The notes under the pieces: model-generated
Seen by the model: only the letters and a program-made list of their open reading frames with translations
What the model was told of the DNA's origin: nothing
Database searches by the model: none
Origin: Oikopleura dioica
Lineage: Eukaryota > Animalia > Chordata
NCBI GenBank assembly: GCA_907165135.1
Contig: OU015569.1
Location: forward strand, 9,079,889 to 9,143,888
Direction: 5' to 3'
Length of the DNA: 64,000 nt
Made by a program: the position numbers and the translations under genes
In this document: positions 26,989-29,900 of the stretch, piece by piece
Layout of the letters: each line of letters opens with the position of its first letter
How positions within the stretch are numbered: position 1 is the stretch's first letter

Positions 26989-29900
26989 TTATTCAAGTGG
27001 GTGAAACTCGGCCTGATTGCCGGAGATTTCGTAGGAAACGCATTTTGAACAGAAGTCTGCAGCAGAGAAGAGACAAGAATCGCATAAATCTGGACAGACA
27101 GTATTGCTTATATTATACAAGTAGTAGCTGCCGGATCGCTTTTCTTCGACCTTTGCCTTGATCATACGGATACTTCTTTGTCCAGTAATTATTTTCGATC
27201 CGTCGCTGCCCTTTTTCGAAAGCTTTCCCATATTCATAAAGAGATTGTCATGTACCATCATAATGCGCAAGTCTGTTGGAAGCGGGATATGAGCAAAGCA
27301 ATGAAAGATGCCATTCGGATCGACCATGTTAGCAGTCAGTCGTTCACCGAGAGAAGGAAGATAATCGCCGAGGCCAATAGCAGGAATACATTTCCCATTG
27401 AGCTCGTCGCGCTTCATCATTGTTTTCGCATGCCCTCCAACACCATCGATCTTCGATCAAGTTCAATAAATAGAGGAATGTGTTGATCCCTTACCGTGCT
27501 TTTCCCGTGGCGACTTTGTTTGAAAACTTTGCATACGGGAAGGCCCCATCCATCCTCGTCAGACACATCAGAAAGTACTTTCCACGATCGATAATCCTAC
27601 ATATGATGTAAACAAACTGCGCCGAATTCTTCATTACGCGCAAAATTATAATTTTGCGCAGATTTTTATTCTGCGCAAATTTTTGAATAACAAAACTTAC
27701 GACAGCCTGGTCGCTCATGAGAATCGCACGTTCGTAGCCCTCGAAAACTTCATTGTCCTCGATGTATTTTAAGCATTTCTGGAAGTGAAGCTTTACAATA
27801 TGTCCGCCCTTTTTCGAATAAGCATTGCTGTCGTCTTTCCAATACATCAAGCAGGAATTGAATCTTCTTCTCGTTAGTTTACCATCGAGCATAAAATATC
27901 CCCAAATGGTGAAACAATGGATGACAAGCTCGTCGTTGTTACCGCGAAGCGCGTTCTAAAAAATCATAATTTTGCGCAAAGATGGAGGGCGAATTCACAT
28001 TTTGGGTGACCGTTCCACCAGTTTTCCCGGCACTGTATTCTCCACTGAAATCGCATTCACAGATCAAAGCGGTTGGAGGATGGATTATTCCGCGTCTCAA
28101 TTTTGTGCAAAGATGGCCTGTATGTCGCGTCTCATTATGATGAAAAAGATCGTTCTTGCAACGTTGCGCAGCCTCAATCAGTAGTTCCTGAAATCGAATA
28201 AAATTTTGCGCATTTTTTCATTACAAACTTTTGCGGAAAGTGTTTTGGTTTGCGCAATGTTTTTGAGAATTCTCCTCTCATTGTCTCTTTTCCTTGCAAG
28301 ATCAGCCATCACTTTGACATAAAACTTCGGCAAGACATCGGTTGACGTGTCTTCCATGATGTCTTTGATCTTCTTATATTTTTCTGAAAGCGCAACGTTG
28401 ATTTCGGCTTTTGAGTTGGGACCATGAGAGCAGCTAAATTTTGCGCAAGCATCATCGAACACTCCTAATGAAGGATACAGCGGATCGTCACAGCCTTTAA
28501 CCTCCATGAGGAATACGATGACTTCCTCAATTGAAAGATTGCGTTCCGTGATCTTCAGAAGGAATAAGAGATCGGCAACTTAAAATCAATTATGGAAATT
28601 TTGCTTAAAAATTCAATATCTTTACCTCTAGACAATGTGTTTCGCAAAGAAAAACAGGGTGCGCATAAGCACGAATATTCATCTTTGACTTTTGGTTCAA
28701 CAAAAAGAGGCGGAATGAGCTGTTTGAACTGAAATGCAGAGATTTGAGGCTTTCCGTCTCTGCATCTCTCCTTGTTGAATTCTTCGCAAAGCAAAGAGAA
28801 TTTGTTGTGCGCTAACCTCCGATCGCAGCGAAATTTCTTTTTGACAGGCTTTGAATAATTTTGCGCATTTCCTGGCTCTTCCGCTTCTGCTCCCGGCTCG
28901 TCTTCCGCAAGGTTTTGCCGCTCATCTTCTGGCTCTTCATGCGCAAAATTTTGCGCGTCTTCATCCAACGCCTCATCCTCTGGCTCTCTTTGCGCAAAAT
29001 TTTGCGCGTAATCATCGATCGGCTCATCTTCTGGCTCTCTTTGAGCAAAATTTTGCGCGTCTTCATCGAGCGGCGGTTGATTGTTCTCGTCGTTGTTGTC
29101 ATCGGCTTCTTCTGGACTTGCAACTTCAAACTGTACTACTGAGTAAAGCTTGTGGTTTTCTTCTGACATGAAGACGCGAAAGAAGTTTTCCGATGTTTTC
29201 TTCCGGAGACGCTGCTCATAGAACTCAAATATATCCGTCTCCGGCGCTTCATCGGAGTGGAAATATAAGTACTGAAGGACAGAAGAGATATCTTCATCGG
29301 TGACTCCGCGCATTATTTTTCCGTGTTGGTCTGCTTCTTCATCGGCAATTTCATATATCTGTTTTTCTTTCAGAAGAAGCGCCTCTTCGATGTGATGAAC
29401 TGTCATGGTCTGAGGATGTTTTGGCTCTTTAAAAGGCTCTGATAGATTATTGAAGAATTTAACGAATCGGTTTTGAGTTTTTCGATCAACGCCAAACATG
29501 AATGACTCGGGAAGCACGCACGCTAAAGCTTGAATTTTCATCTTGTGGGGGATGTGGAACCAATGTTGCGCAAAATTTGAGTTGAAGCTGTTCTCCGGGA
29601 CTTCACTTTTTCGTTCGTTGTAAATAGCTAACATTGCTTTGCTCAGTTCTGCTGAAGCTTCGCCGAATTCCTTGTCCTTAATTTTGCGCATTCGTTTCAC
29701 CATGTTCTCAATCGACTCCCGAGTTTCATTTAAGCTTTCTTCGCGAGCATATTCGTCATCAGAAGGATCACTCGGCTTAGAGACACTCGACCCATCTGTT
29801 GATTGTGAGCTGTTTGTTGAGGAACTCTGATGACCAGCGTCATGATCAATTTCGACTCCTAAGTTAATTTTGAATTTCTGAGACTCCGAAAAATCGCTGT

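What the first reader, a model, noticed from the sequence alone, without database searches (positions are those of the whole stretch)
28900..29110. The transposase-site palindrome is embedded in the coding exon, where it encodes an acidic 'DEDAQNFAQREPEDE' protein repeat
Because GCGCAAAATTTTGCGC is its own reverse complement, on the coding (minus) strand it reads GCG-CAA-AAT-TTT-GCG = Ala-Gln-Asn-Phe-Ala. Three copies at a 51-bp (17-codon) period generate the repeat '..DEDAQNFAQREPEDEPIDDYAQNFAQREPEDEALDEDAQNFAHEEPEDE..' in ORF 28555-29703. The other-strand and other-frame ORFs over this stretch (28812-29129, 28851-29171, 28861-29142) are artefacts of the same repeat. A DNA-level binding-site array doubling as a protein repeat is unusual. 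It suggests either exonisation of a binding-site array or selection acting at both levels.
Basis: seen in the sequence. Interest (0 to 1): 0.6.

Follow-up and report, generated by a model that had tools for sequence, protein, structure and literature searches.

The report
Transposon DNA motif repeated inside exon
A 4.5-kb DNA transposon carries one short DNA motif all through its interior, and three back-to-back copies of it sit in a loosely constrained acidic linker of its transposase gene, where they are translated as a by-product 'AQNFA' repeat. It is a tidy case of DNA-level selection inside a coding exon, not a new kind of system.

Summary
GCGCAAAATTTTGCGC occurs at 28941 and 28992 (perfect) and at 29043 (one synonymous mismatch). 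The period is 51 bp (17 codons), inside minus-strand ORF 28555-29703.

- **Setting.** The array lies in exon 2 of a seven-exon gene. By predicted fold the gene encodes an RNase H-type (DDE) transposase. It sits in a 4,482-bp element (26487-30968) with long terminal inverted repeats.
- **The motif.** The palindrome is a head-to-head pair of the 10-mer GCGCAAAATT. All 17 perfect copies in the 64-kb window lie in the element's interior. They occur in introns, UTRs, the inner repeat arms and exons, in all three reading frames and on both strands.
- **Nucleotide-level selection.** Synonymous-codon shuffling shows an excess of the motif even in the constrained exons. Two relatives at 62-66% protein identity keep the motif. 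Distant relatives do not.
- **Origin of the repeat.** All five relatives that span this junction have 6-22 residues where this copy has about 97. The nearest has one unit-like segment. The repeat is therefore an in-frame tandem expansion in a tolerant linker, not an exonised non-coding array.
- **What is not shown.** "Transposase site" is unproven. The outer 278 bp of both ends carry no copy, and the binding protein is unknown.

Moderate interest.

The parts
28941..28956 (.). Palindrome copy 3 in coding order, perfect GCGCAAAATTTTGCGC; read as AQNFA(H)
28992..29007 (.). Palindrome copy 2, perfect; read as AQNFA(Q)
29043..29058 (.). Palindrome copy 1 with one mismatch (synonymous GCT for GCG on the sense strand)
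28927..29079 (-). Three tandem 51-bp (17-codon) units. They are 40-42/51 identical pairwise. One of 16 palindrome columns varies, against 13 of 35 flank columns.
28857..28921 (-). Decayed end of the array: degenerate palindrome 28906-28921 (RQNLA) and half-site 28857-28866 (NAQNY)
28840..29125 (-). Acidic linker insertion (about 97 aa, 35% D+E, 10% P). Five relatives have 6-22 aa here. The model has low confidence and no secondary structure in this stretch.
28626..29896 (-). Exon 2 of the transposase gene; contains the array
29950..30376 (-). Exon 1: N-terminal part with two Cys2-His-Cys-like zinc-finger motifs. The second is shared with P0002 and P0011. The join to exon 2 is off by one base with the obvious splice sites.
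26989..28578 (-). Exons 3-7 (28578-28229, 28187-27999, 27955-27701, 27596-27495, 27450-26989) and their introns: the catalytic RNase H-fold half
27597..27700 (-). Intron 5 with three motif copies, including the 22-bp perfect palindrome GCGCAAAATTATAATTTTGCGC (27638-27659). Introns 1, 3 and 4 (29897-29949, 28188-28228, 27956-27998) also carry the motif.
26487..26966 (.). Left terminal inverted repeat: outer arm 26487-26764 (no motif), a 116-bp insert, and inner arm 26881-26966 with one motif copy (26929-26938)
30608..30968 (.). Right terminal inverted repeat: inner arm 30608-30693 with one motif copy (30636-30645) and outer arm 30692-30968 (no motif)
26487..30968 (-). Whole transposon, 4,482 bp, flanked by a CAC/CAC direct repeat. 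It holds all 17 perfect GCGCAAAATT decamers of the window.

Best explanation
The three palindromes are an in-frame tandem triplication of a 51-bp (17-codon) unit. The unit lies in a weakly constrained, acidic, probably disordered linker of the transposase gene of a terminal-inverted-repeat DNA transposon.

Each palindrome is two overlapping, head-to-head copies of a 10-nt motif, GCGCAAAATT (wider consensus about aaaaaTGCGCAAAATTTTat). This clade of the transposon family keeps that motif at high density throughout the element's interior. The motif is selected at the nucleotide level, most probably as a DNA-binding site for a protein. My first guess for that protein is the element's own zinc-finger-bearing transposase, which could recruit itself to its own copy or repress its own gene; a host factor is the alternative.

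The motif has no stop codon in any of the six frames, so it can sit in coding DNA. It is commonest where protein constraint is weakest: in the introns and in this linker. On this reading the AQNFA...EPEDE repeat is a tolerated by-product, not a selected protein motif.

**Shown:** the element, the gene model, the transposase fold, the motif's distribution and excess, its conservation in relatives, and the insertion relative to homologues.
**Inferred:** that the motif is a binding site, which protein binds it, and what binding achieves.
For: **The element and its gene**
- Terminal inverted repeats: the outer 278 bp are 98.6% identical, with an inner 86 bp at 90%.
- Exons 2-7 splice in frame into 875 codons.

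**Motif excess and distribution**
- All 17 perfect decamers lie within 26929-30645, against 0.55 expected for the window.
- With up to one mismatch, 26 of 37 hits fall in the element, which is 7% of the window.
- GCGCAAA per kb: introns 24, this repeat 28, 5'UTR plus inner right arm 12.6, other exons 2.1, rest of the window 0.22.

**Nucleotide-level constraint**
- The same 10-mer is read as MRKI, AQNF and CAKF on the sense strand and as NFAQ on the antisense strand.
- Synonymous-codon shuffling of the 920 codons outside the linker gives 3 decamers observed against 0.25 expected (0 of 2000 shuffles reached 3). For TGCGCA it gives 7 against 1.6 (2 of 2000).

**Conservation in relatives**
- L001 and L002 (62-66% protein identity; third codon positions only 40% identical to the window in L001) each have 4 hits with up to one mismatch, against about 0.35 expected (0 of 200 shuffles).
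- These hits include the homologous introns. L002 also has a 3' subterminal array containing the exact 20-mer AAAAATGCGCAAAATTTTAT.

**Insertion and duplication**
- Five relatives have 6-22 residues at this junction, where the window copy has about 97.
- The P0001 linker NAREEGGEDEAL aligns with the unit AQREPEDEAL.
- One of 16 palindrome columns varies, against 13 of 35 flank columns (p = 0.039). Codon differences between units are 5-6 non-synonymous against 1-2 synonymous.
- The linker has pLDDT below 50 and no secondary structure and is 35% D+E.
Against: - No binding evidence of any kind is available.
- The outer 278 bp of both ends, where transposases normally engage, carry no copy. The motif is therefore not the end-recognition site.
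- Distant family members (L048, L049, L050) have no such motif, and no other dispersed motif stands out in them. Such a motif is thus not a general requirement of this transposase family.
- The conservation test on the units rests on three copies (p = 0.039). It cannot separate DNA-level constraint from constraint on the AQNFA peptide within the array itself.
- Only one element copy and two short relatives' contigs were available.
- The exon 1-exon 2 join is off by one base. This copy may not encode a full-length protein.
Confidence: 0.6

Rival explanations
1. The motif is a binding site for a host factor rather than for the transposase. Candidates are a transcription factor, an insulator protein or an anti-silencing protein. 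The element would accumulate the motif to secure expression or to escape repression. The exon array would be part of that intragenic site cluster.
For: - The motif is absent from the outer ends and concentrated downstream of the promoter-like part of the right arm and in the introns.
- TTTTGCGC is one base away from the E2F consensus TTTSSCGC (my own knowledge).
- Distant relatives with the same transposase architecture lack the motif. That fits adaptation to one host lineage.
Against: - No known factor could be matched.
- The motif does not meet the E2F consensus as written.
- The rest of the 64-kb host window has no perfect decamer at all. A common host regulatory motif would be expected to appear there at least occasionally.
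- The motif sits in mirror-image positions in both inner repeat arms.
Confidence: 0.25
2. The motif acts in the RNA. Copies in the pre-mRNA pair with each other or bind an RNA-binding protein. This would affect splicing, export or small-RNA production.
For: - Density is highest in the introns and UTRs.
- Eight of the 12 non-palindromic decamers are in the sense orientation.
- Neighbouring palindromes pair into a 16-bp helix in the predicted fold, with z = -2.67.
Against: - Both orientations occur.
- The copy in the left inner arm (26929-26938) lies beyond the AATAAA that overlaps the stop codon. It mirrors the copy in the right arm, as expected for a DNA feature.
- Any tandem palindrome folds this way.
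- There is no Rfam match.
Confidence: 0.08
3. The repeat is selected as protein. AQNFA with acidic flanks would be a short linear motif, for example an interaction or activation module. The palindromic DNA would then be incidental.
For: - All three copies keep AQNFA, and the only nucleotide change in a palindrome is synonymous.
- NFAQHW also occurs upstream in the protein and in P0001.
Against: - The same 10-mer is read in two other frames, on the antisense strand and in non-coding parts of the element.
- Five relatives lack the repeat entirely.
- Residues around AQNFA change freely.
Confidence: 0.05
4. The array has no function. It would be a neutral minisatellite-type expansion of a unit that happened to contain the motif. 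The dispersed copies would reflect a mutational process such as microduplication or gene conversion.
For: - Tandem duplication by itself explains the 51-bp period.
- Only one element copy could be examined.
Against: - The units have diverged to about 80% identity while the palindromes stayed intact.
- Motif enrichment persists in relatives whose synonymous sites are near saturation.
- Synonymous codon choice favours the motif.
Confidence: 0.08
5. The segment is not translated. It would be an intron, or the gene would be a pseudogene, so there is no protein repeat.
For: - The segment is an insertion relative to all relatives.
- The exon 1-exon 2 junction has a one-base frame problem.
Against: - The frame stays open across it and is continuous with conserved sequence on both sides.
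- Its length is a multiple of three.
- It has 50% G+C against 30% in the six introns, and no T-rich acceptor tract.
- The other five splice junctions are in frame.
Confidence: 0.04

Closest known systems
Arrays of subterminal or internal transposase-binding motifs in DNA transposons: Ac/Ds AAACGG hexamers, En/Spm 12-bp motifs, Hermes subterminal repeats (my own knowledge), and Galileo's multiple THAP-domain sites in its long terminal inverted repeats (PMC3688188, abstract seen)
   Same: A short motif specific to one element lineage is repeated many times inside the element. It occurs in both orientations and in mirror-image copies in the inner parts of long terminal inverted repeats.
   Different: Here the copies are not confined to the subterminal regions. 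They run through the whole 3.7-kb interior, including the introns and the coding exons in all three frames. None lies within 278 bp of either end. Binding by the transposase is not shown.
In-frame minisatellite expansions in disordered protein linkers
   Same: The period is a multiple of three (51 bp). The segment has low-complexity acidic composition, is absent from homologues, and lies between two conserved domains.
   Different: The core of the unit is a conserved DNA palindrome that also occurs outside coding sequence in the same element. The flanking residues drift.
Regulatory protein-binding sites embedded in coding exons ('dual-use' codons; my own knowledge)
   Same: A nucleotide-level signal overlaps codons and biases synonymous codon choice.
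   Different: This is a mobile element's own gene, not a host gene. The site was amplified into a tandem array that adds residues to the protein.
[quoted passage not shown]
   Same: It has terminal inverted repeats, an RNase H-fold transposase and no Pfam hit.
   Different: The superfamily could not be assigned because no reference sequences were available. The candidate 3-bp target duplication (CAC) is weak evidence.

Membership tests
Cut-and-paste (DDE-type) terminal-inverted-repeat DNA transposon | Terminal inverted repeats bounding the element | tested here: met
   26487-26764 against 30692-30968, 98.6% identical over 278 bp. An inner pair, 26881-26966 against 30608-30693, is 90% identical.
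Cut-and-paste (DDE-type) terminal-inverted-repeat DNA transposon | Encoded transposase with an RNase H-like catalytic fold | tested here: met
Cut-and-paste (DDE-type) terminal-inverted-repeat DNA transposon | Catalytic acidic triad (DDE or DDD) | tested here: inconclusive
   Conserved D in C(D)FSGEY and in LMS(D)QA, and a conserved HGKSxID-G-GG block. The third residue was not assigned and the active-site geometry was not checked.
Cut-and-paste (DDE-type) terminal-inverted-repeat DNA transposon | Target-site duplication | tested here: inconclusive
   CAC lies directly on both sides. A 3-bp match has a 1-in-64 chance, and there is no empty site or second copy to confirm it.
Cut-and-paste (DDE-type) terminal-inverted-repeat DNA transposon | Multiple copies in the genome, or evidence of mobility | not testable with these tools
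   There is one copy in the window and the host genome is not available. The near-identical arms suggest a recent insertion.
A named superfamily (Sola, Zator, Kolobok, Academ, Dada, KDZ, Novosib) | Significant sequence similarity to reference transposases of that superfamily | not testable with these tools
   There is no Pfam model for these superfamilies (PMC5751038) and no reference sequences in the tools. Pfam and PDB sequence searches were empty.
Transposase-binding-site array | Short motif repeated in the terminal or subterminal regions of both ends | tested here: inconclusive
   There is one copy in each inner arm, in mirror-image positions, plus extra copies in the 5'UTR. There is none in the outer 278 bp of either end.
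Transposase-binding-site array | Motif is bound by the element's transposase | not testable with these tools
   No binding assay is possible. The N-terminal zinc-finger region is only a candidate, and its model has low confidence.
Transposase-binding-site array | Motif co-varies with the transposase lineage | tested here: met
   The motif is present in the window element and in relatives at 62-66% identity. It is absent from relatives at 23-28% identity.
In-frame tandem repeat in a protein linker | Period a multiple of three, open frame, and absence from homologues at the same junction | tested here: met
   The period is 51 bp, or 17 codons. Five relatives have 6-22 aa where the window copy has about 97.
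E2F-type site (TTTSSCGC) | Match to the consensus | tested here: not met
   The motif reads TTTTGCGC, with T at the first S position (by inspection). The consensus is from my own knowledge.

The most novel reading that the evidence does not exclude
This clade of an uncharacterised DDE transposon family has evolved to cover its whole interior with one protein-binding motif. The motif's sequence happens to be free of stop codons in all six frames. To hold more sites, the clade may have reshaped its own gene by biasing synonymous codons, expanding a linker into a site array, and keeping or gaining short introns that serve mainly as site carriers. Five of the six introns carry the motif, and distant relatives appear to lack introns. 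If so, cis-site selection, not protein function, drives the exon-intron structure and a protein repeat of a transposase.
Probability: 0.2. Interest if true: 0.6.

Novelty: new variant of a known kind. Interest (0 to 1): 0.35.

Why it matters
Binding-site arrays at transposon ends are well known. Here the same short motif runs through the whole element interior. It measurably biases codon choice and, through tandem duplication, adds about 50 residues to the transposase. That makes it a clean natural example of nucleotide-level selection writing protein sequence.

If the transposase itself binds the motif, the element would be a model for how transposases find and prefer their own copy, or for how they repress themselves. 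The family also has no Pfam model, so its transposase and ends are worth describing. None of this changes what is understood about transposition, and the function is not demonstrated.

Tried and rejected
- **Pfam.** Seven window-encoded protein pieces and eight relatives gave no credible family.
- **PDB sequence search.** A profile of the family found nothing.
- **AlphaFold database (afdb50).** The library was not available, so the taxonomic spread of the fold was not obtained.
- **More relatives with DNA.**
  - The word-indexed protein search found only P0001.
  - A metagenome scan with protein patterns found none.
  - A metagenome scan with the conserved 19-mer AAAATGCGCAAAATTTTAT gave 45 loci. 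All were chance hits, with no motif enrichment and no tblastn match.
  - Two viral-contig scans found none.
  - Repeat-number variation among close copies therefore could not be examined.
- **Literature.** A search for the motif string returned only primers and unrelated sites.
- **Caenorhabditis germline motif pair (m1/m2, HIM-17).** The papers held give the motifs only as logos, and the Linhart paper is not held. I dropped this lead without a result.
- **Rfam.** No match in 26000-31500.
- **N-terminal half of the protein.** The model had pLDDT 55.8, too poor for a fold search. The zinc-finger domain type is unassigned.
- **Exon 1-exon 2 junction.** No canonical GT..AG pair near the obvious sites restores the frame. 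I left this open as a frameshift, a weak alternative donor or a sequence error.
- **Host organism.** Not identified. The short introns (41-104 nt) with TTTCAG-like acceptors look nematode-like, but this is an impression, not a test.
- **Motif spacing.** I saw no regular spacing of motif sites along the element by inspection and did not pursue it.
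Full report
**1. The observation**

The 16-nt palindrome GCGCAAAATTTTGCGC is at 28941-28956 and 28992-29007 (perfect) and at 29043-29058 (one mismatch). That is 3 hits against 0.07 expected, and none of 100 shuffles reached 3. Tandem Repeats Finder reports 28920-29074 with period 51, 3.0 copies and score 233.

In the frame of minus-strand ORF 28555-29703 (382 aa) the palindrome reads GCG-CAA-AAT-TTT-GCG. The one mismatch is a synonymous GCT. 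A degenerate copy (28906-28921, RQNLA) and a half-site (28857-28866, NAQNY) follow in the same stretch.

**2. Where it sits**

- **The element.** The region is the interior of a 4,482-bp element, 26487-30968. It is bounded by long terminal inverted repeats. The outer 278 bp are 98.6% identical. An inner 86 bp is 90% identical. The left arm carries an extra 116 bp. CAC lies directly on both sides. There is no second copy in the window.
- **The gene model.** The minus strand carries a seven-exon gene. Exons 2-7 join through five GT..AG introns of 41-104 nt into 875 codons without a stop. Exon 1 (30376-29950) encodes two Cys2-His-Cys-like zinc-finger motifs. The second also heads the full-length relatives P0002 and P0011. 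With the obvious splice sites, the join from exon 1 to exon 2 is off by one base.

The gene is therefore a DDE-type (RNase H-fold) transposase of a family without a Pfam model. [quoted passage not shown] I could not assign it among them.

**3. The palindrome is a doubled copy of an element-wide motif**

The half-site GCGCAAAATT occurs 17 times in the 64-kb window. All 17 lie between 26929 and 30645, against 0.55 expected. With up to one mismatch, 26 of 37 hits are in the element, which is 7% of the window. The wider consensus is about aaaaaTGCGCAAAATTTTat.

| Region | GCGCAAA per kb |
|---|---|
| Six introns (8 copies in 332 nt) | 24 |
| The exon repeat | 28 |
| 5'UTR plus inner right arm | 12.6 |
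| 3'UTR plus inner left arm | about 18 |
| Remaining exons | 2.1 |
| Outer arms (555 nt) | 0 |
| Rest of the window | 0.22 |

- **Frames.** In exons the same 10-mer is read as MRKI, AQNF and CAKF on the sense strand and as NFAQ from the antisense orientation.
- **Stop codons.** The palindrome has no stop codon in any of the six frames. That is why three other ORFs stay open across the array. Those ORFs have no similarity to the family (best E = 0.12). The 382-aa ORF matches relatives on both sides of the array (E = 1e-85 and 1e-25).
- **Codon choice.** I shuffled synonymous codons among the 920 codons outside the linker, keeping the protein sequence and codon usage. This gave 0.25 decamers on average against 3 observed (0 of 2000 shuffles reached 3). 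For TGCGCA it gave 1.6 against 7 (2 of 2000). Codon choice therefore favours the motif even in the constrained exons.

**4. Relatives**

Two short contigs from relatives could be read: L001 (encodes P0001, 62% identity) and L002 (encodes P0005, 66%). Each has 4 motif hits with up to one mismatch, against about 0.35 expected (0 of 200 shuffles).

- L001 has the motif in the intron homologous to intron 2 and at the MRKI, NFAQ and CAxF positions.
- L002 has it in the intron homologous to intron 5. It also has a 3' subterminal array with the exact 20-mer AAAAATGCGCAAAATTTTAT, which the window element carries three times.
- Third codon positions between the window and L001 are only 40% identical. 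The motif has therefore survived long divergence.
- Distant relatives at 23-28% identity (L048, L049, L050) have no copy at all, and no other dispersed motif stands out in them. The L048 gene is largely uninterrupted and has 41-bp inverted ends.

The motif is thus a conserved feature of one clade, not of the whole family.

**5. The array is an expansion inside an existing linker**

In the alignment of the six proteins that span this junction, the five relatives have 6-22 residues between the conserved ...LYSVVQF and KFRCDRRL blocks. The window copy has about 97. The nearest relative's linker, LKKNAREEGGEDEALR, aligns with the unit AQREPEDEALD. Its DNA (AAAAAAAATGCGCGCGAAGAG) holds one motif-like site. 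A single unit was therefore already in frame in the common ancestor, and this lineage multiplied it.

- The three units are 40-42/51 identical.
- One of 16 palindrome columns varies, against 13 of 35 flank columns (Fisher p = 0.039).
- Codon differences between units are 5-6 non-synonymous against 1-2 synonymous.
- The insert is 35% D+E and 10% P.
- In a poor model of the N-terminal half (pLDDT 55.8), the insert has confidence below 50 and no secondary structure.
- Its G+C is 50%, against 30% for the introns.

**6. What it most likely is**

The array is an in-frame tandem triplication in a tolerant, probably disordered linker. What is conserved in it is the DNA palindrome. The peptide is a by-product.

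One idea explains the density pattern: the element is selected to carry as many copies as possible in its interior. Copies then accumulate where protein constraint is weakest, which is the introns, the UTRs and this linker.

I infer that the motif is a protein-binding DNA site. I favour the element's own protein as the binder (probability about 0.4 for that specific step). Two observations support this:
- The motif tracks the transposase lineage.
- It sits in mirror-image positions in the inner repeat arms.

The purpose could be recruitment of the transposase to its own copy, or self-repression. This is inference. No copy lies in the outer 278 bp of either end, so the motif is not the end-recognition site. 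A host factor is a serious rival (0.25). The weaker rivals are:
- An RNA-level role. Neighbouring palindromes pair in the predicted fold (z = -2.67), but both orientations and mirror-image DNA positions occur, and there is no Rfam match.
- Selection on the peptide.
- A neutral minisatellite.
- A non-coding segment.

As an aside from my own knowledge, A4T4 tracts flanked by G+C are intrinsically bent DNA. The 51-bp period is close to five helical turns. I did not test either point.

**7. Comparison with known systems**

It works most like the repeated transposase-binding motifs of Ac/Ds, En/Spm, Hermes (my own knowledge) and Galileo (PMC3688188, abstract seen). It differs in three ways:
- It spans the whole interior, including coding sequence in all frames.
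- It avoids the outer ends.
- Binding is unproven.

It also fits ordinary in-frame minisatellite growth in protein linkers, and the idea of regulatory sites inside codons. 'Selection at both levels' is supported for the DNA level only.

**8. Verdict**

The feature is real and the description is correct. It is a new variant of a known kind, in a transposon family that lacks a curated protein model. Interest is 0.35. The most novel reading still open is that cis-site selection has shaped the gene's codon use, its linker and perhaps its introns. I give that about 0.2 probability.

**9. What did not work**

- Further relatives with DNA could not be found, so repeat-number variation is untested.
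- The afdb50 library was unavailable.
- The literature search for the motif and the lead to Caenorhabditis germline motifs gave nothing usable.
- The superfamily, the host species, the third catalytic residue and the exon 1-exon 2 junction remain open.

Noticed in passing
window 26594-26615 and 30840-30861; 26740 and about 30710: Both outer repeat arms carry an AP-1-like TGAGTCA next to a perfect CRE palindrome TGACGTCA, followed by a TATA-like box. This looks like a promoter inside the terminal repeat. Because it is present at both ends, the left end could drive antisense transcription into the 3' end of the gene.
   Followed up: partly
window 26881-26925 and 30655-30693; L002 930-998: The inner repeat arms hold repeated TGACC/GGTCA units (AGGTCA at 26890, 26910, 30659 and 30679), including TCAAGGTCA. 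These resemble nuclear-receptor half-sites. The relative L002 has the same GACCTCAAATGACC repeats near its end, so this is a second conserved subterminal motif. It is an alternative candidate for the real transposase-binding site.
   Followed up: partly
window 26765-26880: The left terminal repeat has an A/T-rich insert of about 116 bp that the right arm lacks.
   Followed up: no
window 29896-29951: With the obvious GT..AG sites, the junction between exon 1 (zinc fingers) and exon 2 is off by one base. The other five junctions are in frame. This could be a frameshift in this copy, a weak alternative donor or a sequence error.
   Followed up: partly
window 28197-28217, 26924-26944, 30630-30650: Intron 3 shares 21 identical bases with both inner repeat arms. 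The shared stretch is the motif with its A/T flanks.
   Followed up: partly
window 27638-27659: Intron 5 contains a 22-bp perfect palindrome, GCGCAAAATTATAATTTTGCGC. It has the same two half-sites as the exon palindrome but set six bases further apart. The half-site, not the 16-mer, therefore appears to be the unit.
   Followed up: partly
window introns 27451-29949; L048 901-3102; proteins P0003, P0004: The clade that has the motif has six short introns, and five of them carry the motif. The distant relative L048 is uninterrupted over the first two-thirds of the gene. P0003 and P0004 (about 50% identity) run straight across the intron positions. Either the introns were gained in the motif clade, or those two proteins come from transcripts.
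   Followed up: partly
window 19733-19885 and 19952-20090: Two arrays of a 9-mer (AAAGATGGG and its complement CCCATCTTT, with 22- to 47-bp super-periods) face each other about 70 bp apart. This is a foldback-like structure unrelated to the finding.
   Followed up: no
window 62315-62857 and 59564-60610: Host genes in the window are a GWT1 (GPI-anchor acyltransferase) exon and a GNAT acetyltransferase domain. These show that the window is eukaryotic. The transposon lies about 570 bp upstream of an ATG at 31542.
   Followed up: partly
window 28900-29110 (minus-strand RNA): If the region is transcribed, the two perfect palindromes can pair with each other into a 16-bp perfect helix (predicted fold, z = -2.67).
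   Followed up: partly
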